From the IMG/VR virus record IMGVR_UViG_3300009314_000001: 64,000 bases of DNA, one strand, 5' to 3'. The DNA is from a virus (Duplodnaviria; Caudoviricetes). Positions 4,812-61,720 of the stretch are shown here, in pieces; the stretch's first letter is position 1, and every line of letters begins with the position of its first letter. Below the pieces are notes generated by a model that searched no databases, was not told where the DNA came from, and worked only from the letters and a program-made list of their open reading frames with translations. The translations under genes were made by a program, and so were the position numbers.

Positions 4812-5129
4812 TCAATCAAGGCGTCCTGGCATCATTCTAGCGATAGTGTCTATAGGATCAAACTGCGGCTCCTCATTCTCATCACATCCAAATAATTCTT
4901 CTATTCTATCTATAGACTTCGGATCATTTAGGTCAAAAGTATGTGGGCCTATTTTGAGAATGGTTTCATTAATAACAATAGCATCTGGATAAAGTCCTTC
5001 CACCACAGGACCATAGATATGAATCTGTACGCCCATATCAAATCCGACCGGATTATCATATGGGTCTAGCCAAGCCCTATGATCAGGACTCGTGTTGATG
5101 AGATCTACTATAGCCTTTAGTACATCCAC
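4812..5129 (-). CDS. Hypothetical protein
   Basis: 105-aa ORF abutting nrdJ (TAATG-type coupling). Confidence 0.6.
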   Translation of the reverse strand: MDVLKAIVDLINTSPDHRAWLDPYDNPVGFDMGVQIHIYGPVVEGLYPDAIVINETILKIGPHTFDLNDPKSIDRIEELFGCDENEEPQFDPIDTIARMMPGRLD

Positions 5130-8100
5130 TAAGTATCCTCAACGGTAACCACCACTTTCTTCTTTTGATCTGGCGGTGGCAACTCACATTTATCAGAATC
5201 ACAATAGTGGCTTCCAACAGCCTCAGTTATATAGTCACTGTAATCAGGCTCAGTGACTTTATTATTATATTCAACAACCTCTTCCGGTGTGCAAGCTTCG
5301 TAAGGGGCCTGAGGATAATCGTGATTCTCCGTAGGAAGGAATGAGAGACCTTTCAAGCTGTCCTCATACGATGCCAAGATCTTCGCGATTTCTTTAGCCT
5401 CGTGTTCATGAAATCGTATGGTACAAGATACCTGATTATCAGCCCAATACCTCTGATAGTCTACAACATTCTTGACTTGCTCCCAGATATTAACCTCGCC
5501 GACAGGCCTTACACCATTGCATTTTACGGCGAATGTTGCAACCATCGTCTTCGGATCAGTAACAGACAGTTCAACATGATAACCAGCATCTTGTAAGATC
5601 TTGATAAGTACACTATCATTCGATATTCTAACTCGCCGCCAATACGTACATGATTCTGGGTGATGTATACCAGGTGTGGCACCAACCATAAGACTAACAG
5701 TACCACTAGGCTTAACACTAGTCACTTTGATAGACTTAGGAACGCACAACCACTCGGAGTAGATCTCATCCCATCTGCGAATCTCGTTATATCCAGCATC
5801 GCAGAAATCCTTTAGCACTTTACGTCTGCCAAACCTCTCAAAAGCCTGGACAATACCACTCTGTGACAGGCCTATCCGGCGACTTCTTAACATCACTTGG
5901 TTAGTTCTGGCATTATGAGTTGGCAATAGTGTGACGGTCTTCCCATATAAGTATGCAAACTTCAAAGTCCTCATATATTCGTCGGCGGAATCATGATTAT
6001 TCGGAAATGTCTCGACGAGGCAGCACAATTCATAAGATTCAAGACTCTGTTCTCCACACTGCCCTACTTTATGACCTTCAACTACTACTTGATTCGTTTT
6101 CGGCTCAGTCAGACAATAAACAGTGTCTTCACCAAGGCATTCAACAGACTTAATTTTAGTATATCGACCAGTGTCTGAATTATTAGAACCAGTCTTACCA
6201 ACAAGCCATTGTCTTGCTTTAGTGATCTTAGACTGCTGAATGAAACCTACGTAGTCAAGAAATTTCGTGACTTGTTTTATTCCAGATATAATCAATTCCC
6301 ATTGTTCTTTTCGATTATATAATTTCTTGCCGCCTTTCCCATCATTCATCATCTGCTTAGATGATTTTCTTCGATGTTGAACAGTACTAGCTATACCAAG
6401 TTGACTAAACAGTAACCTGCAATCTAATAACAATTGCTGGTTAGACTGTGATATCCTAACCGATATTGTACCATTATCGCTAATTTGAACACCACCATCA
6501 GCAGATGCGAACCCCTTAAGAAATGCTGCTATCGTCTCACGCGATCCACACCATATACTAGAAGGAATATGATGCTTATCGCCAGATCTGACCCCATCGG
6601 CCACTAACAACCTGCCTAGCACTGTAGAACCAATATGTTCTTCGTCATGCTCAAAATGTTTTTGCTCTCTTTTCCAACCAGCATATACAGGTTGTTGATT
6701 TGTCGACTTTGTATGTGTGTGATATACTTCAAGCATCAAGCCTCTAAGTCTTGGCAAAACGTCACTAACATCATCGTCATAACACGCGCACTTTGCACGC
6801 ACTTGACCATCTTTTTGTGGTGATAATGAACCATCACCTATTACCCAGCCAGCCAACTCTGCATATGCCATATCATACAACACATTAGCAGAAGTTGCGT
6901 GAGTTGTTTGATTGAGTGGGATCATCATGCCAACTTCAAGATCCCCAAGTTTTACTCTTCGCTCAGAATACTCCACCTTCTTCTTGACTCTTGCCCTATC
7001 AAGAACGATGAATTCATGATTCCTAGTAGCATCAACCCAAGATCCATCTGTAAGGATTACTCGATACACAATATCAGCACCAACCCTATACACCTTTGTT
7101 GCTGGTGCCAATCCATTATCATTAACAATGACCTGCTCGCCATATTTCTCTAATGGATTACTACCTAGCCCATCATATTCAAGCGACCCTTGGCTAAGCC
7201 AAAGATCTTCAAGTCTTTCATAACCATATTGCGTCAAAATCCGCATACTTCCGGCGAAGCAGGGGTTTGTACCACATGCTCTACTATCTATACCAGGTCG
7301 CCTACCATCTATCATTCTACCGAAATCACGTATGTTATCCAACCATTGATAACCCGGCTCACCACTTATACCAGTACGTTCTGCAAAATCTGTATAATCC
7401 ATGCCTATTTCAGCAAAGATTGAATTGTTCGATGCCCATCTATGACTATTCCTAGCATTCCAAATATCGATGGCCTTCTGGAATCGATCACTACCTATAG
7501 CGATTTCGCCAAACATTATCGGTTCGGCACGCCAAATATCCTCATCTTCCAACTTCGTCACCACTTCCGTGAACACTTCAGCTTCTGTACTCGTCAGATC
7601 AGCTAAAGGACTCTTCATCATACAATATTCATAGTCCTTCGGGGAGCCTAATGCTATTTCTGAGGATCTGCGCACATTACCAGCTACTACACAGGCCCCT
7701 ATATAATTCATGATATCGACTATATCAACACTGGAGAGTGTCGCACCGATCCTAGACTCCAAATGTTCACGCACAAATGCATGCAGTGATTGTAGGATGC
7801 TTGGACCTGATGCTTTGCCACCAAATCCATTAATTGGTTCACCAGCTCTTCTAATCTCATCATAATTGAATAGAACATTACCGTCATCAGACTTTATAGT
7901 ATACGACCATATAAGACGACGCAGAGAGTCCACCCAACCTTCTCGAGAATCGGCGATCGTATAGATATTATCGATAGATGCGGGCTTATGAATTTGTATT
8001 CGATTAGCTCCCTTTGTATCAAACCCAACGCCGACACCAAGCATAGACATATCCATAAGAAAACAGAATGGCTCCGCTGGGTCAGATTCAATCTGATCAT

Positions 8101-8548
8101 ATGTTGATACAAAACCACAATTATTAAGGGCTGCTGATCCTCTCTCCCACATGAACTCAGTACCCATCATCCATAAACCGCGACCGGGAGGCAAGAACTT
8201 AAAGTTCCATATCCTCTCAAACATTTCTTGGGCTGAATCCTGAGCCTTATCATAGTCCCACGGCAAGTGTAATCGACGTTGATGCCGTCTTTGGATTTCG
8301 TAGCAACCTTCGACAACACGACGTGCAGTATCAAGGAATGTCTCTTTGGAGCCATCATCCGTGACACGGGAATATGTGCGGTAAAAAATGAACTCGCCCA
8401 AACCATCAAAGCCAAATTTGGGCTTCTTACCAACATATCCACTAAGGAATGATCCACCAAGTCTGAAGTGCTTTTCTTCCTCTACTTCCTTGTTAAAGTA
8501 CTTCTGAGATATGTTCTCTACCTTGATCTGCCTAGCCACTACGGACAC
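5129..8548 (-). CDS. nrdJ: Class II (adenosylcobalamin-dependent) ribonucleotide reductase, monomeric RTPR type, intein-containing
   Basis: FLPPGRGLW, AALNNCG, VVAGNVRRSSEI, GTNP|CGEQ..ELCCLVE, TSVKPSGTVSL, WADNQVSCT and C-terminal CDSDKC. Confidence 0.95.
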   Translation of the reverse strand: MSVVARQIKVENISQKYFNKEVEEEKHFRLGGSFLSGYVGKKPKFGFDGLGEFIFYRTYSRVTDDGSKETFLDTARRVVEGCYEIQRRHQRRLHLPWDYDKAQDSAQEMFERIWNFKFLPPGRGLWMMGTEFMWERGSAALNNCGFVSTYDQIESDPAEPFCFLMDMSMLGVGVGFDTKGANRIQIHKPASIDNIYTIADSREGWVDSLRRLIWSYTIKSDDGNVLFNYDEIRRAGEPINGFGGKASGPSILQSLHAFVREHLESRIGATLSSVDIVDIMNYIGACVVAGNVRRSSEIALGSPKDYEYCMMKSPLADLTSTEAEVFTEVVTKLEDEDIWRAEPIMFGEIAIGSDRFQKAIDIWNARNSHRWASNNSIFAEIGMDYTDFAERTGISGEPGYQWLDNIRDFGRMIDGRRPGIDSRACGTNPCFAGSMRILTQYGYERLEDLWLSQGSLEYDGLGSNPLEKYGEQVIVNDNGLAPATKVYRVGADIVYRVILTDGSWVDATRNHEFIVLDRARVKKKVEYSERRVKLGDLEVGMMIPLNQTTHATSANVLYDMAYAELAGWVIGDGSLSPQKDGQVRAKCACYDDDVSDVLPRLRGLMLEVYHTHTKSTNQQPVYAGWKREQKHFEHDEEHIGSTVLGRLLVADGVRSGDKHHIPSSIWCGSRETIAAFLKGFASADGGVQISDNGTISVRISQSNQQLLLDCRLLFSQLGIASTVQHRRKSSKQMMNDGKGGKKLYNRKEQWELIISGIKQVTKFLDYVGFIQQSKITKARQWLVGKTGSNNSDTGRYTKIKSVECLGEDTVYCLTEPKTNQVVVEGHKVGQCGEQSLESYELCCLVETFPNNHDSADEYMRTLKFAYLYGKTVTLLPTHNARTNQVMLRSRRIGLSQSGIVQAFERFGRRKVLKDFCDAGYNEIRRWDEIYSEWLCVPKSIKVTSVKPSGTVSLMVGATPGIHHPESCTYWRRVRISNDSVLIKILQDAGYHVELSVTDPKTMVATFAVKCNGVRPVGEVNIWEQVKNVVDYQRYWADNQVSCTIRFHEHEAKEIAKILASYEDSLKGLSFLPTENHDYPQAPYEACTPEEVVEYNNKVTEPDYSDYITEAVGSHYCDSDKCELPPPDQKKKVVVTVEDT
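6059..7261 (-). mobile_element. Intein (401 aa) with LAGLIDADG homing endonuclease, C-terminal Gly-Gln
   Basis: Starts CFAGSMRILT after GTNP and ends VYCLTEPKTNQVVVEGHKVGQ before CGEQ. Endonuclease motifs LAGWVIGDG and FLKGFASADG. Removing it restores GTNPCGEQ. Confidence 0.93.
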
Positions 8549-56202: not shown

Positions 56203-58383
56203 TTATACTTCGGCTTCGACGGCTTCTTTATCCGGCTTCTCCAGCACAACCTCTCCATCGATCGCCTTCTTAAGGTAATCTATGGAAATAATACCACAGC
56301 CGTACTTCTCAGCCTTCTTCGTTTTATTAGAACTGCTTGTTGCATCCTTCTGGACAAGAAAGTCCAATGCCTTAGACACACCAGATTTAACCGTGCCACC
56401 TAATCGTTCGATGTCACCGATATAAGCCCTAGTGCCTGTTAAGCAGAAAGACAGGCCTGTAAAAATTTTCCCTTCTGCCGGTTGAGTCATCACTCCATCA
56501 CCATCGGTGTCAACCGGTTCATCCTCCTGAGTCTCTTCTTTGATCGTGACACCAACCGACCGCAACTTCTCGATCAAGGGGCGGCACTCATCGATACCCT
56601 TCCGGATTGACTCACGAATAGTGTCACCGAATCCGGGGATCTGAAGTGTAGCCAACTTCTGATCATCAAGCCAATCATCAAGAGCATCCAATTGACCACT
56701 CGCCGTACCTCGCAAGATCTCAACACGGCGGCGACCGAGCAGATCAATTCCAAGAGATCCTAAGAAAACATGAAGAGGTAAGCACTTCTTCGATGCGATA
56801 TTCTTCACGATTTCCGAAGCTCGTGACTCGCCGATACGCACACCGCCATCAAGTTCAACATCCTTCATCTGATCAACGGCCAAGGTGTACAAATCAGCTG
56901 GGTCACCAACAAGACTATTATCCCACAGAGCCTTCAAGATCGTGTCACCGATCCCAAGGATTCCGGTACCTTTCTTCGAAGTCCCAATCCAATGATCAAT
57001 CTTGCCAAGACCCACCGCTGGGCACTGAGAACTTGAACAATATGTGATAGCACCAGTCTTGCCCCTCATAGTCCTTGTCGTAGGTTCACCACAAGTTGGG
57101 CACCGCTTCGGTTCTTCGATTTGTTGGCGTGTAACATGTTTACGAACTCGACGCGTGATTTTCGGGATAATATCACCCGCTAGGATTACCTCGACGGTAT
57201 CACCAATTGCGACGTCAAGACGATTGATCTCGTCCCAATTGTTCAAAAGGGCGTGAGTAACATTCACACCGCCGACGCGAACTTCCTCAAGCAAAGCCGT
57301 AGGAATAACAGCCCCGGTATGGCCAACCGTCAAGATCACATCTTTAAGCGTAGTTTGGCCCGAGTAGTGCGGGAACTTGATCGCTCGAGCATACTTCGGA
57401 CGCAGACGAGTCTTCTTGTCGGCAGTCACAAAGACATCTTGATGTGCAGCTTGATTCAAGCACACTACCACGCCATCGATCGCGAATGGAAGTTGTTCAC
57501 GGCCGTCAAGTGTAGCTGCATAGAATTTCTTGACGTCGTCGATCGTTTTGCACACCTTGTGAGGAACAGGTCTAAATCCCAATTGCTTCAGAAATTTGAA
57601 TTTACCTGATTCCGTAGCGAATGGGTCGCCTGGCACTCCACCGTCACCGGCTTCAACATTGAATGCGATAAATCGCATTCTCTCACTATCTTGACCATCA
57701 TCACGGCTGAAGCAACCATTACCAATAGCACGAGCATTGCTCTGGTCCTTTTCATCAATATCATCAAAGGGTTTGCCAAGGTCACGGGATCGGATCACTT
57801 TCCAATCCTCAGTATAGAGAATGGCCTCACCACGCACTTCCAAATCCAAAGCTTCCTCTAGGACTGTTGGGAGTCCTTGGAAGTTTGCACCGTTGGCGGT
57901 GATATCTTCGCCGACTGCCCCATTACCTCTCGAGGCTACCCGAACAAGTTTACCGGCCTTATAGCTGGCGCAGATACTGCCACCATCGATCTTGAGCGAT
58001 GTACAGACCTCTACAACACCATCGTCCTTGATCTTCTTGCAGACACCGGTGTACCAAGAATCGTACCCAAGGATACCGTCATCAGTATTATCGAGCGAAC
58101 CCATTGGGATAGCGTGAGTGACTTTATCACGCAGTTCGGCTTCGCTGAAGGGGGCACCAACCCGATCGATACGCTCGTCATCTGGTGCTTTTGCTTTGAG
58201 AGCCGGACGGAGGAGATCATACTCCGCATCGGTCATAATCGCTTCCGAGCCAACGCGGTAATATGCGTGGTCAGCCTTGTCGATGAGCAATTGAAGCTTG
58301 TGAACCGGCAAGCTGTTGATCGCGGCTGCAAAGCCGTCTTCGTGGTGGCGTGAAGCCTTGATGAGGTCTTGTGCTGATGCCAT
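56203..58383 (-). CDS. ligA: NAD-dependent DNA ligase
   Basis: SLKIDG (KxDG), EVRGE, IDGVV, LAGDIIPK, CPTC..C....C Zn finger, HhH and BRCT (FCLTG..VKSGVSKALDFLV). Confidence 0.95.
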   Translation of the reverse strand: MASAQDLIKASRHHEDGFAAAINSLPVHKLQLLIDKADHAYYRVGSEAIMTDAEYDLLRPALKAKAPDDERIDRVGAPFSEAELRDKVTHAIPMGSLDNTDDGILGYDSWYTGVCKKIKDDGVVEVCTSLKIDGGSICASYKAGKLVRVASRGNGAVGEDITANGANFQGLPTVLEEALDLEVRGEAILYTEDWKVIRSRDLGKPFDDIDEKDQSNARAIGNGCFSRDDGQDSERMRFIAFNVEAGDGGVPGDPFATESGKFKFLKQLGFRPVPHKVCKTIDDVKKFYAATLDGREQLPFAIDGVVVCLNQAAHQDVFVTADKKTRLRPKYARAIKFPHYSGQTTLKDVILTVGHTGAVIPTALLEEVRVGGVNVTHALLNNWDEINRLDVAIGDTVEVILAGDIIPKITRRVRKHVTRQQIEEPKRCPTCGEPTTRTMRGKTGAITYCSSSQCPAVGLGKIDHWIGTSKKGTGILGIGDTILKALWDNSLVGDPADLYTLAVDQMKDVELDGGVRIGESRASEIVKNIASKKCLPLHVFLGSLGIDLLGRRRVEILRGTASGQLDALDDWLDDQKLATLQIPGFGDTIRESIRKGIDECRPLIEKLRSVGVTIKEETQEDEPVDTDGDGVMTQPAEGKIFTGLSFCLTGTRAYIGDIERLGGTVKSGVSKALDFLVQKDATSSSNKTKKAEKYGCGIISIDYLKKAIDGEVVLEKPDKEAVEAEV

Positions 58384-59782: not shown

Positions 59783-60415
59783 ATGAACGAACAGATGCAA
59801 ATTACGGTTATCTCTTATATTCCTTTGTTGACCGGTAGAGCAGGTGAGATCCTAAGTCCGGAAGACTTCAATGAAGACAGATTCAAGGATTGTCATCCCG
59901 GCAACGTAGAAGCGTGCTTATGGGCACAAATCAGCGAAGAAGAAGGTGTGGTACCTGTCTTCGTATTGGACCGAGCCCATGAAGTAGCAGATCATTTAGT
60001 AGAGTGGGCTGAGAATGATTTAGATAGATGGTTCGCTCTATGTTTCCAAGAACGTGGTGATCTATACACAGCACTTTTAATGCCAAATATCGATGAATCT
60101 ATTAGGCGATTCAAACAAGCCCAAATGATAATCAATAGGTCAAAACCGCCAGAAGACGCAAAATATACAGCGATCTTTCATCCATTGAAATTTACGTCTC
60201 AATCTGAAAACACATTCAAAAAGGTACGCGACAGAATCAGGGATAGATCAAACGTCGGTTTCTTAGATATCACTGATATCGATAAAGATAACCCACTAGA
60301 TATTAATGAAGAAGATATTAAGAGTATTGGGCCATTTAATGTATGTTGGGACAGTACTGTATTTGGTCTTAATATAGAAAATTTATGCTTTGAAGATGAA
60401 GAAGAGGCCACCTAG
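59783..60415 (+). CDS. Hypothetical protein
   Basis: GGAGG RBS before ATG 59783 (track start 59708). Confidence 0.65.
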   Translation: MNEQMQITVISYIPLLTGRAGEILSPEDFNEDRFKDCHPGNVEACLWAQISEEEGVVPVFVLDRAHEVADHLVEWAENDLDRWFALCFQERGDLYTALLMPNIDESIRRFKQAQMIINRSKPPEDAKYTAIFHPLKFTSQSENTFKKVRDRIRDRSNVGFLDITDIDKDNPLDINEEDIKSIGPFNVCWDSTVFGLNIENLCFEDEEEAT

Positions 60416-60517
60416 ACGATTTGCACGTCTGACCCCCAGGTTCCCCTAGTGCTCTGGACTACCTCGTAGAGGTAATACCCCTACATTGGCTCCCCGAAGG
60501 GCTGAGCTAAAGTGGCC
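60406..60517 (-). ncRNA. tRNA-like RNA lacking an anticodon loop, with expanded D-loop
   Basis: G-GCCACTT TA GCTC AG[45 nt]A GAGC A CTAGG GGAA CCTGG GGGTC AGACG TGCAAAT CGTCT AGGTGGC-C. All four cloverleaf stems pair. Confidence 0.7.
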
Positions 60518-60522
60518 ACAAA

Positions 60523-60771
60523 TTATGCTTTTGTCTTCTCTTTTGCTTTCGCTGCACGAGCCTTAACTCTCTCAATTTTGCCTAAAGCGAATTCATGAGC
60601 TTGGCGGAGCGAATCAACTGCTTTCTTACATTTCTCATAATTTGGAGTGATTTTTGCCAATTTGGCTTCACTCGCAGTTAACTTCTTCTTGATTTTTTCG
60701 GCTCGTGCAGTTAGCCTAGCAATCTTTTCATCTGGAGTTTGTGGTTGTTTACTCTGTTCTTTCTTTGCCAT
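60523..60771 (-). CDS. Small Lys/Ala-rich basic coiled-coil protein
   Basis: 82 aa; CAAATCTA upstream. Ends 6 nt before the tRNA-like RNA. Confidence 0.65.
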   Translation of the reverse strand: MAKKEQSKQPQTPDEKIARLTARAEKIKKKLTASEAKLAKITPNYEKCKKAVDSLRQAHEFALGKIERVKARAAKAKEKTKA

Positions 60772-60891: not shown

Positions 60892-61179
60892 TCATCTCAA
60901 TGCAGCCTCTAACCATCCGCAATTATAGGCGGCTTCATGTAAAAACCAATCGTACCCATGCCTAGATGGATCACAGGTACGATTAGTTCGTGCGTCCTTA
61001 TAACCCTTTTCGAATGGGCCACGTATTCCTGGTAATTCCAGGGGTGCCCAATCGTCACACGTTAGGTTTGATGCGAACTGAAGCTCTGGCTGGCGGTGTC
61101 TTCTTGACTTCTTCTTTAGCCACCCCTTTGTCCAGAAGCTTCTGGCGCAATTCAGGAACTGTTTTAAGGCGTTCTTCAT
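60892..61179 (-). CDS. Possible small protein with RMF-like C-terminal pattern
   Basis: FEKGYKDA..AYNCGWLEA. Overlaps the next ORF by about 125 bp; start unclear. Confidence 0.3.
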   Translation of the reverse strand: MKNALKQFLNCARSFWTKGWLKKKSRRHRQPELQFASNLTCDDWAPLELPGIRGPFEKGYKDARTNRTCDPSRHGYDWFLHEAAYNCGWLEAALR

Positions 61180-61396
61180 CGAACGTTAACACCACTTTCT
61201 CACTGCCTTGTCGTGGCTCAGTGACATCAATTTTGCCGAGACCTTCGACAGTAATATTCATCTTCTTACCGTTAGCCAGATCACGAAGTTCTTCCTTTTT
61301 CGCGTCCAACTTATCAGCAAGTTCTTGGGACTGGATTTGTAATTCCAGTGCTTCCTTTGCAAGATCCTGACCAATATCGGTTACAGCGGTACTCAT
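61055..61396 (-). CDS. Hypothetical protein
   Basis: GGAGG RBS before MSTAV (ATG 61396). Confidence 0.65.
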   Translation of the reverse strand: MSTAVTDIGQDLAKEALELQIQSQELADKLDAKKEELRDLANGKKMNITVEGLGKIDVTEPRQGSEKVVLTFDEERLKTVPELRQKLLDKGVAKEEVKKTPPARASVRIKPNV

Positions 61397-61417: not shown

Positions 61418-61720
61418 ATGCTAAAACAAACGCGGCGGGTAACCACTCTCTTCCTCCAGGAGCTCCCAGAACAAGTAGAGTACTTTGATGCATATATGTA
61501 CGTAATGGTAGATCGTAAACCAGATAAAATAGTATCTGGAGCACAGTTTGGTACTGAAGTCAGAATTAATCCGTGTGTGCTAGACTGGGAGAAAAAGACT
61601 ATAACGATGACTATTCCAAAAGATATAAATGAAGGTATTGATAGCTGGGATGATCTAGATCCAAATTTCTATGAAGCTGTCGAAGCAGCCTTTCTAGCAT
61701 TAATCAAAAGTTGTCTTTAG
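61418..61720 (+). CDS. Hypothetical protein
   Basis: 100 aa. Confidence 0.5.
   Translation: MLKQTRRVTTLFLQELPEQVEYFDAYMYVMVDRKPDKIVSGAQFGTEVRINPCVLDWEKKTITMTIPKDINEGIDSWDDLDPNFYEAVEAAFLALIKSCL

What the first reader, a model, noticed from the sequence alone, without database searches (positions are those of the whole stretch)
60406..60517. Anticodon-less tRNA mimic with a structured D-loop insertion
Seen on the minus strand: a 7-bp acceptor stem (GCCACTT/AGGTGGC) with an extra G-1:C73 pair, canonical TA-GCTC-AG, a D stem GCTC/GAGC, a 5-bp anticodon stem closed by a GGAA tetraloop, variable loop GGGTC, and a perfect T arm (AGACG-TGCAAAT-CGTCT). The D-loop holds about 45 extra nt, including a C(UUCG)G hairpin and an 8-bp hairpin. 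No CCA is encoded. Known: G-1:C73 is the bacterial tRNA-His identity element, and YrlA Y RNAs and tmRNA have different topologies. Inference: a non-decoding tRNA mimic, such as a decoy for anticodon-nuclease or uncharged-tRNA-sensing defences, a synthetase/ribosome ligand, or an RNase P/Z processing tag. It is likely co-transcribed with the basic 82-aa protein, a possible partner.
Basis: partly seen in the sequence, partly recalled or inferred. Interest (0 to 1): 0.8.

Follow-up and report, generated by a model that had tools for sequence, protein, structure and literature searches.

The report
Closed, anticodon-less tRNA mimic of megaphages
A group of very large marine phages keeps a small RNA gene that folds like a tRNA but has no anticodon and no free amino-acid-accepting end, so it cannot work in translation and probably acts as a tRNA look-alike that binds some protein; its function is unknown.

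Summary
It is not chance and not a decaying tRNA. I found 17 further distinct relatives in uncultured huge (340-440 kb) marine myophages, always at the same genomic position.

On 15 relatives, 97% of cells in 49 proposed pairs form standard pairs. 38 pairs show changes on both sides, in all nine helices (0 of 500 shuffles reach this).

- **tRNA-derived:** a model built from four relatives hits real T4 tRNAs. Three minimal 75-76-nt relatives were found; the two that matched Rfam's tRNA model scored just under its threshold.
- **Cannot decode:** the anticodon-position stem is capped by GNRA or UNNCG-type loops of 4-6 nt (13 nt in one relative) that differ between relatives.
- **New point:** A conserved 9-bp hairpin branches from it. 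The window's copy has lost that hairpin.

So the His-identity and charging ideas are unsupported. The 82-aa protein has no detectable homologue and is absent from every relative's locus.

Neither Rfam nor ARAGORN recognises the RNA. My best reading is a stand-alone, trans-acting tRNA-shape mimic. This scan has noted other anticodon-less phage tRNA look-alikes on other DNA, none similar in sequence.

The parts
60406..60517 (-). tRNA-shaped RNA core, 112 nt. This is the window's copy of the family. It lacks the 5' branch hairpin that the relatives have.
   Evidence: Sequence. Model R1, built without the window, scores it 78 bits, E 7e-18. Model R2 scores it 84.8 bits.
60510..60517 (-). 5' strand of the terminal helix. 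GG corresponds to the outer helix P0 of the relatives; CCACUU is the acceptor-like helix P2.
   Evidence: It pairs with 60406-60413. P2 is 100% paired, with 5 of 6 pairs changed on both sides. P0 GG/CC is invariant and its extension covaries.
60406..60413 (-). 3' strand of the terminal helix (AGGUGG + CC). No CCA follows. It overlaps the last 10 nt of a convergent plus-strand ORF.
60504..60507 (-). D stem, 5' strand (GCUC), preceded by U8 A9 and followed by A14 G15.
   Evidence: It pairs with the distal GAGC at 60451-60454. The first pair is GC:8, AU:4, UA:2, GU:1 and the second is CG:14, AU:1.
60492..60501 (-). Pa, a short hairpin, C(UUCG)G type, at the start of the D-loop insertion.
   Evidence: All four of its pairs show changes on both sides. 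Loops are UUCG, GAAA and others.
60461..60490 (-). Pc, a 3-bp helix (GCC/GGU), enclosing Pb, an 8-bp hairpin with loop UAUUA. This is the main body of the D-loop insertion.
   Evidence: Pc pairs: G-U, G-C, A-U, U-A at the first; C-G, U-A, U-G at the third. Pb: 10 of 11 pairs show changes on both sides, and the loop-closing G-C becomes C-G in L058.
60451..60460 (-). Conserved single strand AGUCCA plus the D-stem 3' strand GAGC.
   Evidence: Nearly invariant across the family, and kept (as ACUCCA) even in the minimal relative L060.
60436..60449 (-). Hairpin in the anticodon-arm position: 5 bp closed by a GGAA tetraloop.
   Evidence: The stem is 100% paired, with 4 of 5 pairs changed on both sides. 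Loops differ between relatives: GGAA, GAAA, UAACG, UACCG, UGUCG, UUAAUU.
60431..60435 (-). 5-nt variable loop GGGUC (G46 and C48 equivalents).
   Evidence: Family pattern is RNGYC, with the C invariant alongside G15.
60414..60430 (-). T arm: 5 bp plus loop UGCAAAU.
   Evidence: 100% paired, with 3 of 5 pairs changed on both sides. All five pairs differ from L039 and all are compensated. Most relatives have a bulged base in the 3' strand.
60523..60771 (-). 82-aa Lys-rich ORF directly upstream. It sits where the relatives have the 5' branch hairpin.
   Evidence: No detectable homologue. No Pfam or PHROG family above threshold. A sigma-70-like site lies upstream at 60855-60826.
61055..61396 (-). 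113-aa protein gene, the conserved same-strand upstream neighbour of the RNA in most relatives.
   Evidence: Absent in L060 and L084.
61418..61720 (+). 100-aa protein gene, divergently transcribed. It is present at every locus where the flank could be read.
   Evidence: AlphaFold model pLDDT 94.5 with no structural neighbour.
56203..58383 (-). NAD-dependent DNA ligase, a syntenic marker downstream of the RNA.
   Evidence: Pfam. It lies downstream of the RNA in L039, L060, L079, L080 and L082.

Best explanation
This is the window's copy of an undescribed family of tRNA-derived, stand-alone non-coding RNAs, carried by a clade of huge marine myophages.

The RNA keeps the tRNA cloverleaf and the bases that build the L-shape: U8, A14, G15/C48, G46, and the T-loop U54/A58.

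- The anticodon arm is reduced to a stem closed by a stable cap.
- The acceptor end is sealed. The 5' GG and 3' CC pair, and in relatives the flanks extend this into an outer helix.
- Relatives also carry a 9-bp hairpin branching beside the acceptor helix.
- Most carry a three-helix insertion in the D loop.

As encoded, the RNA can neither read a codon nor be charged. I infer that it acts in trans as a mimic of tRNA shape that binds a tRNA-recognising protein. It could be an adaptor, as bacterial Y RNAs of the Yrn1 type are, or a competitive decoy for a host factor that handles tRNA bodies.

- **Shown:** structure, conservation, tRNA ancestry, loss of the anticodon, closed end.
- **Inferred:** trans action and protein binding.
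- **Unknown:** the partner.

My odds: real structured RNA 0.95; non-decoding 0.9; not charged in the encoded form 0.75; trans-acting protein-binding mimic about 0.45.
For: - **Family.** 18 distinct members were found by DNA patterns, synteny and covariance models.
- **Covariation.** 49 pairs in 9 helices on 15 relatives: 97.2% paired, 38 pairs changed on both sides, 0 of 500 shuffles as high. Slid controls give 34-52% paired (earlier).
- **Strand.** G-U pairs occur on this strand only, which fixes the transcribed strand.
- **tRNA ancestry.** Model R1 hits T4 tRNA-Pro, Thr and Ile at 25-35 bits and real tRNAs of the 408-kb relative. Of the three minimal relatives, L060 scores 25.2 and L084 27.5 bits on Rfam tRNA against a threshold of 29; L083 gave no match at E<=0.1.
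- **No anticodon.** Loops of 4-6 nt (13 nt in L072) vary between relatives and are of GNRA or C(UNNCG)G type.
- **Closed end.** Cognate flanks pair over a mean of 6 consecutive bp, against 3.4 for non-cognate combinations. The base after CC changes together with its 5' partner: UA:9, CG:4, GC:2.
- **Stand-alone gene.** U-runs or strong hairpins follow the 3' strand in most relatives. In L060 the RNA lies 50 nt from a divergent gene, with no upstream gene on its strand.
- **Fixed genomic position**, next to two small proteins found only in this phage clade.
Against: - No expression data: no RNA run could be listed, so ends and abundance are unknown.
- No partner protein is identified. The two conserved neighbours have no recognisable fold or family, and the 113-aa one is missing in L060 and L084.
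- The window's copy lacks the branch hairpin and has only an 8-bp terminal helix with unpaired flanks. In this phage, RNase P/Z-type processing to a tRNA-His-like form is not excluded.
- A -10-like hexamer at the right distance is present in only 7 of 15 relatives, against a background of 21%, so independent transcription is not established.
- In most relatives the RNA starts 10-30 nt after the stop of the upstream gene, so it could be a 3'-UTR element.
Confidence: 0.45

Rival explanations
1. A cis-acting processing or stability element. The tRNA-like fold at the end of the upstream mRNA is cut by RNase P/Z, as mascRNA is at the MALAT1 3' end, or it simply blocks 3' exonucleases. The hairpin just upstream would then become the protected 3' end of the message.
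For: The RNA begins 10-45 nt after the stop codon of a same-strand gene in most loci. A hairpin ends exactly at nucleotide -1. The anticodon loop is dispensable, as in mascRNA-type tags.
Against: In L060 and L084 there is no same-strand gene upstream, yet the hairpin and outer helix are kept. The upstream gene differs between loci: the 113-aa gene, the 82-aa ORF, or a 213-aa ORF. Both the leader and the 3' end are sequestered in covarying helices, which is unfavourable for RNase P (established knowledge of RNase P substrates). A mere roadblock would not need conserved tRNA tertiary bases.
Confidence: 0.2
2. A chargeable tRNA-like carrier. After removal of the leader and trailer and addition of CCA, it is aminoacylated by an anticodon-independent synthetase such as HisRS. 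It then serves a non-ribosomal or tmRNA-like role.
For: The window copy by itself looks like a tRNA-His precursor, with G-1:C73. 9 of 15 relatives have A after CC. M. smegmatis YrlA shows that a closed tRNA mimic can be cut by RNase P and receive CCA (PMC4201824).
Against: - The A after CC covaries with a 5' U, and G or C with C or G, so pairing is what is selected, not a CCA end.
- G-1 is A in most relatives, and 1:72 is a pyrimidine-C mismatch.
- Pair 3:70 is C-G or U-A, so there is no alanine identity.
- There is no long variable arm for Ser or Leu.
- No CCA-adding enzyme is found in the complete 408-kb relative, although the host would supply one.
Confidence: 0.1
3. A tRNA scaffold that presents a functional insert. 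The working part would be the accessory hairpins (the D-loop insertion, the branch hairpin), for example as an antisense seed or a protein aptamer, with the tRNA body providing only stability.
For: The insertion is modular. It is absent in three minimal members. In L079/L080 its apex is replaced by a 17-nt loop that is identical in both, although their stems differ. The Pb loop sequence is conserved within clades.
Against: The only part common to all 18 members is the tRNA body with the outer helix. Each accessory module is missing in at least one lineage: the D insertion in L060, L083 and L084, and the branch hairpin in the window. The common Pb loop is only 5 nt.
Confidence: 0.15
4. A decaying tRNA pseudogene, or a real decoding tRNA with introns or an unusual anticodon loop.
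For: Sequence and structure are tRNA-like. Some relatives can be drawn with a 7-nt loop CUNNCGG.
Against: All helices, including the anticodon-position stem, are maintained by compensatory changes. The implied 'anticodons' would differ between orthologues (AAC, ACC, GUC, ACA, GAC). Six members have 4-nt GNRA caps. ARAGORN with intron mode finds nothing. No excision of an insertion restores an anticodon loop.
Confidence: 0.03

Closest known systems
Canonical tRNA (Rfam RF00005), including the phages' own tRNA genes
   Same: Cloverleaf order of helices; U8, A14, G15/C48, G46, T-loop U54/A58; 5-nt variable loop; 5-bp T stem. The family model cross-hits real tRNAs at 25-39 bits. In the complete relative G001 it lies 3-17 kb from a cluster of 14 tRNA genes on the same strand.
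   Different: No 7-nt anticodon loop. The acceptor end is closed by a covarying outer helix. No conserved CCA or discriminator. 1:72 is usually mismatched. Most members have G55 and no G18G19 in a normal D loop. There are extra helices. It is below the Rfam threshold and invisible to ARAGORN.
Bacterial and phage Y RNAs with a tRNA-like module, especially D. radiodurans Yrn1 and also YrlA (Chen et al. 2014, PMC4201824)
   Same: A non-decoding tRNA mimic whose 5' and 3' ends form a terminal helix. In Yrn1, as here, the stem-loop between the D-like and T arms sits in the anticodon position, with a 5-bp stem and a short loop. These RNAs occur in phages too.
   Different: No Ro60/TROVE gene in four genomes of this clade, one of them complete. 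The conserved 5' motif is GGAAG(U)RUG, not the Ro-binding GNCGAAN0-1G. No Rfam Y RNA or YrlA match. In YrlA the ends emerge at the anticodon side, which is the opposite arrangement.
Phage T4 stable RNAs species 1 and 2 (rnaC, rnaD)
   Same: Phage-encoded stable RNAs of 119-139 nt beside the tRNA gene cluster. Species 1 has a tRNA-like T arm. They have no anticodon function. That their role remains unknown is from my own knowledge, not from a tool result.
   Different: No detectable similarity: R1 gives 4.5 bits on rnaC. The architecture is different.
tmRNA tRNA-like domain; mascRNA-type tRNA-like processing tags
   Same: tRNA mimics without an anticodon that are recognised by tRNA enzymes.
   Different: tmRNA has a free, alanine-charged CCA end with G3-U70, and a tag reading frame. 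Here 3:70 is C-G or U-A, the end is closed, and ARAGORN finds no tmRNA. mascRNA is released by RNase P/Z from a long transcript. Here the leader and trailer are held in helices.
Intron-containing tRNAs of Lak megaphages (Devoto et al. 2019, PMC6784885)
   Same: Oversized tRNA-like genes in very large phages that bacterial tRNA finders reject.
   Different: Those keep an anticodon and are read as tRNAs once the insert is removed. Here, removing the D-loop insertion still leaves no anticodon loop.

Membership tests
tRNA (decoding) | 7-nt anticodon loop with U33 and a conserved anticodon | tested here: not met
   Loops are 4-6 nt (13 nt in L072) and differ between orthologues: GGAA, GAAA, UAACG, UACCG, UGUCG, UUAAUU.
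tRNA (decoding) | Free single-stranded 3' end (discriminator plus CCA, encoded or addable) | tested here: not met
   The 3' CC and following bases pair with the 5' flank and covary. The window copy has no CCA. Actual RNA ends were not measured.
tRNA (decoding) | Recognition by tRNA models (Rfam RF00005 gathering score, ARAGORN) | tested here: not met
   Window: no hit even at E<=10. Minimal relatives: L060 25.2 and L084 27.5 bits against a threshold of 29; L083 no match at E<=0.1. ARAGORN finds none.
tRNA (decoding) | Cloverleaf with the core tertiary nucleotides | tested here: met
   U8, A14, G15, C48, G46-equivalent, and T-loop U54/A58 are invariant. The four arms covary.
   The base at -1 is G only in the window and L039, and A elsewhere. 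In relatives the pairing GG lies upstream of an intervening hairpin and forms the outer helix.
Y RNA / YrlA / Yrn1 | Ro60 (TROVE) gene in the genome, usually within 4 kb | tested here: not met
   PF05731 is absent from G000-G003, including the complete 408-kb G001. The controls matched as expected. A host Ro60 cannot be excluded.
Y RNA / YrlA / Yrn1 | Ro-binding motif GNCGAAN0-1G near the 5' end; match to the Rfam Y RNA families | tested here: not met
   The conserved 5' motif is GGAAG(U)RUG. No Rfam match.
Y RNA / YrlA / Yrn1 | Terminal helix formed by both ends, plus a tRNA-like module | tested here: met
   Outer helix P0 and the tRNA-like core.
tmRNA | G3-U70, chargeable CCA end, tag reading frame | tested here: not met
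   3:70 is C-G or U-A. No tmRNA by ARAGORN. 112-165 nt leaves no room for a tag frame.
Riboswitch or cis-regulator of the downstream gene | Constant downstream gene and an expression platform overlapping the aptamer | tested here: not met
   The downstream gene varies: ligase, a 454-aa ORF, or a convergent ORF in the window. The terminators that follow do not overlap the outer helix.

The most novel reading that the evidence does not exclude
Closed tRNA mimics may be a distinct class of phage RNA that works as a ribonucleoprotein or decoy. One possibility is sequestering a host immune tRNase of the PARIS, Septu, retron or OLD kind, which recognises tRNA bodies rather than anticodons. Another is tethering a host RNA-processing enzyme, as Y RNAs do, possibly together with the two clade-specific small proteins encoded beside it.
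Probability: 0.25. Interest if true: 0.85.

Novelty: new variant of a known kind. Interest (0 to 1): 0.62.

Why it matters
Phage tRNA genes are now understood as weapons in the conflict with host tRNA-cleaving defences, but tRNA-shaped RNAs that cannot decode have no assigned role. T4's species 1 and 2 RNAs are still unexplained.

This family is a clean case for study:
- 18 members;
- nine helices proven by covariation;
- a sealed acceptor end that rules out charging as encoded;
- modular accessories, each lost in some lineage, which point to the tRNA body as the working part.

It gives a defined RNA and two candidate partner genes with which to ask what a phage gains from a tRNA look-alike. 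It also shows that annotation pipelines miss such genes.

Tried and rejected
- **Expression.** No RNA holder was listed for the window locus or for the commoner relative L030.
- **Close DNA relatives.** None among deposited phage genomes. No exact match of the T-arm pattern in 185,579 prokaryote genomes.
- **Partner proteins.** Pfam and PHROGs give nothing above threshold for the 82-, 95-, 100-, 113-, 210-, 280- and 287-aa neighbours. Foldseek-PDB, VIA-wide and AFDB-cluster searches of the 100-aa model (pLDDT 94.5) and Foldseek-PDB of the 113-aa model (pLDDT 70) give no significant match. The best was Z 3.8, with HU-like rows at E>2.
- **T4 rnaC/rnaD as homologues.** Rejected.
- **The motif TGGAAGTRTG as a general phage promoter.** Rejected. 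It occurs once per locus, at this RNA only.
- **Loop-loop pairing between the branch-hairpin loop and the Pb loop.** No covariation by inspection.
- **Linking the D-loop insertion to the presence of the 113-aa gene.** Rejected. L083 has the gene with a minimal RNA.
- **Ancestral isotype.** None can be named. The best identity to the relative's own tRNAs is 50 of 75, to Asn.
- **Locus L059.** This 369-kb NCBI contig has the 100-aa gene but no RNA within 4 kb. The whole record could not be searched.
- **Sigma-70 -10-like hexamers upstream.** Weakly enriched only.

Full report
**What is at the site.**

- An 8-bp terminal helix (GGCCACUU/AGGUGGCC), then UA.
- A 4-bp stem GCUC that pairs with a GAGC lying 50 nt further on, then AG.
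- A roughly 47-nt insertion with a C(UUCG)G hairpin and an 8-bp hairpin (loop UAUUA).
- A 5-bp stem closed by GGAA, then GGGUC.
- A T arm AGACG-UGCAAAU-CGUCU. No CCA.

ARAGORN (default, and with intron mode on the whole 122-kb record) and Rfam 15 (gathering score, and E<=10 on the region) report nothing. The minimum-energy fold is only modestly better than shuffles (z -2.4). It prefers the proximal GAGC, so the single sequence cannot decide the structure.

**Where the window comes from.** The window is part of an IMG/VR virus record that CheckV rates 34% complete. It encodes a tail sheath, baseplate J and V proteins, an intein-bearing ribonucleotide reductase and an NAD-dependent ligase, so it is a very large myophage. 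The same proteins occur on contigs of 340-440 kb. It has no close cultured relative.

**Relatives.** I found them by three routes.

- A phage with a 63%-identical ligase carries a homologue of the RNA with obvious compensatory changes.
- DNA patterns from the conserved stretches found more copies in viral and marine metagenome contigs.
- The two conserved neighbouring genes led to further loci.

A covariance model from four relatives (R1) and an extended one (R2) then defined 18 distinct members, the window included. No bacterial or archaeal reference genome holds the conserved T-arm string.

**Structure.** On 15 distinct relatives aligned to R2, the 49 pairs are 97.2% standard pairs. 38 pairs have changes on both sides, and none of 500 column shuffles reaches any measure. 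Sliding the partners by 1-3 columns drops pairing to 34-52% (earlier versions). The alignment was fitted to the model, which favours the structure, but the slid controls and the number of pair types are far outside that effect.

All nine helices covary. G-U pairs exist only on this strand, so this is the transcribed strand.

The window copy keeps every helix intact although it differs from its nearest relative at many paired positions. For example, all five T-stem pairs differ and all are compensated.

**It derives from tRNA.**

- U8, A14, G15 with C48, the G46 position and the T-loop U54/A58 are invariant.
- R1 cross-hits genuine T4 tRNA-Pro, Thr and Ile at 25-35 bits and the true tRNAs of the complete 408-kb relative at 33-39 bits.
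- Three relatives (L060, L083, L084) are minimal 75-76-nt versions without the D-loop insertion. L060 and L084 reach 25.2 and 27.5 bits on Rfam's tRNA model, just under its threshold of 29. L083 gave no match at E<=0.1.
- In that complete genome the RNA sits on the same strand as a cluster of 14 tRNA genes, 3-17 kb away.
- No ancestral isotype can be named.

**It cannot decode.** The stem in the anticodon position is maintained: 100% paired, with four of five pairs changed on both sides. Its loop is 4-6 nt (13 nt in L072) and differs among orthologues. It is GGAA or GAAA in six members, a C(UNNCG)G pentaloop in eight, and other sequences elsewhere. These are stable caps. If the pentaloops are read as 7-nt loops, the 'anticodons' would be AAC, ACC, GUC, ACA and GAC in orthologous genes, which makes no sense for a decoder.

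**The acceptor end is closed.**

Every relative has, upstream of the tRNA-like part, the motif GGAAG(U)RUG and a 9-bp hairpin. The hairpin's stem covaries (seven of nine pairs changed on both sides), its loop is UUNANU, and its last base is nucleotide -1.

The GG of that motif pairs with the CC that follows the 6-bp acceptor-like helix, and the pairing continues into the flanks for 3-8 bp. Cognate flanks average 6 consecutive pairs against 3.4 for non-cognate combinations. The first base after CC is A, G or C, each matched by U, C or G on the 5' side. So 'CCA', present in 9 of 15, is part of a helix and not an acceptor tail.

Position 1 is an unpaired pyrimidine facing C72.

In the window the hairpin and the AAG linker are missing, and the GG abuts the 6-bp helix. 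This produces the continuous 8-bp helix that looked like 1:72 plus G-1:C73. An 82-aa ORF with no detectable homologue occupies the place of the hairpin.

**Modules and gene boundaries.**

- Modularity: the D-loop insertion is absent in three lineages, the branch hairpin is absent in the window, and the apex of the long insertion hairpin is swapped for a conserved 17-nt loop in L079/L080. The one constant is the tRNA body with its closed end.
- Gene boundaries: U-runs within about 10 nt of the outer helix, or separate strong hairpins (L039, L047, L048, L082), follow the RNA. In L060 it lies 50 nt from a divergent gene with nothing upstream on its strand. A -10-like hexamer upstream is only weakly enriched.

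This favours a stand-alone small RNA gene, but co-transcription with the upstream gene is not excluded. In the window, co-transcription with the 82-aa ORF is likely: there is a 5-nt gap, and a promoter-like site at 60855-60826.

**Neighbours.**

- A 100-aa protein gene (61418-61720, plus strand) is divergent from the RNA side at every locus that could be read.
- A 113-aa protein gene (61055-61396, minus strand) precedes the RNA in most loci, but is absent in L060 and L084.

Both proteins are confined to this phage clade. Neither has a Pfam or PHROG family or a structural neighbour. They are candidate partners by position only.

No Ro60/TROVE gene and no CCA-adding enzyme gene is present in four genomes of the clade, one of them complete.

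**Interpretation.** As encoded, the RNA is a sealed tRNA look-alike. Of the known kinds, its topology matches the Yrn1-type bacterial Y RNA described by Chen et al. (PMC4201824): ends in a terminal helix, a tRNA-like module, and a short-looped 5-bp stem in the anticodon position. It fails the membership tests for Y RNAs, having no Ro60, no Ro-binding motif and no Rfam match.

T4's species 1 and 2 RNAs are the nearest phage analogues by position and by lack of a known role, but they are not homologous.

[quoted passage not shown] This makes a body-mimic decoy plausible but is not evidence for it.

My readings, in order of odds:

- a trans-acting, protein-binding tRNA-shape mimic (about 0.45);
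- a cis processing or stability element (0.2);
- a scaffold for functional inserts (0.15);
- a chargeable carrier after processing (0.1);
- a pseudogene or true decoder (0.03).

**Earlier notes of this scan.** They list anticodon-less tRNA look-alikes in several unrelated phages. None resembles this RNA in sequence. I did not test those claims. One note led me to the Lak megaphage intron paper (PMC6784885), which describes a different thing: tRNAs that keep an anticodon.

**Verdict.** This is a real, well-supported, undescribed RNA family. It is a new variant of the known kind 'tRNA-like non-coding RNA'. The mechanism is open.

Noticed in passing
L060:3867-3988 (-), L083:1503-1576 (-), L084:2881-2955 (-): Minimal 75-76-nt versions of the RNA, without the D-loop insertion. 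L083 and L084 have canonical T loops (UUCGAAU, UUCAACU). L060 and L084 score just under Rfam's tRNA threshold and could be mis-called as tRNA pseudogenes.
   Followed up: partly
L079:2848-3023 (+), L080:2851-3019 (+): In these two relatives the apex of the long insertion hairpin is replaced by a 17-nt loop (ACACUAGAACCCAAAGA). The loop is identical in both although the closing stems differ by compensatory changes. It is a candidate functional loop.
   Followed up: no
window 61418-61720 (+): The 100-aa protein is conserved next to the RNA in all loci. It folds with very high confidence (pLDDT 94.5: four long strands, a short helix and a C-terminal helix) but has no structural neighbour in PDB or the AlphaFold clusters.
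   Followed up: partly
L070 (G001:C1:56000-75999): The complete 408-kb relative carries 14 tRNA genes on one strand within 17 kb of the RNA. None encodes CCA.
   Followed up: partly
window 5129-8548 (-): A B12-dependent ribonucleotide reductase interrupted by an intein with a LAGLIDADG endonuclease domain.
   Followed up: no
window 59783-60415 (+): A convergent, acidic 210-aa ORF with no homologue in the relatives. Its stop overlaps the last 10 nt of the RNA gene on the other strand. In this phage the RNA has no U-run or terminator hairpin after it.
   Followed up: no
L059 (NCBI GCA_902731625.1, 369-kb contig): This relative keeps the 100-aa gene and the ligase, but I found neither the 113-aa gene nor the RNA within 4 kb. 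The full record could not be searched.
   Followed up: partly
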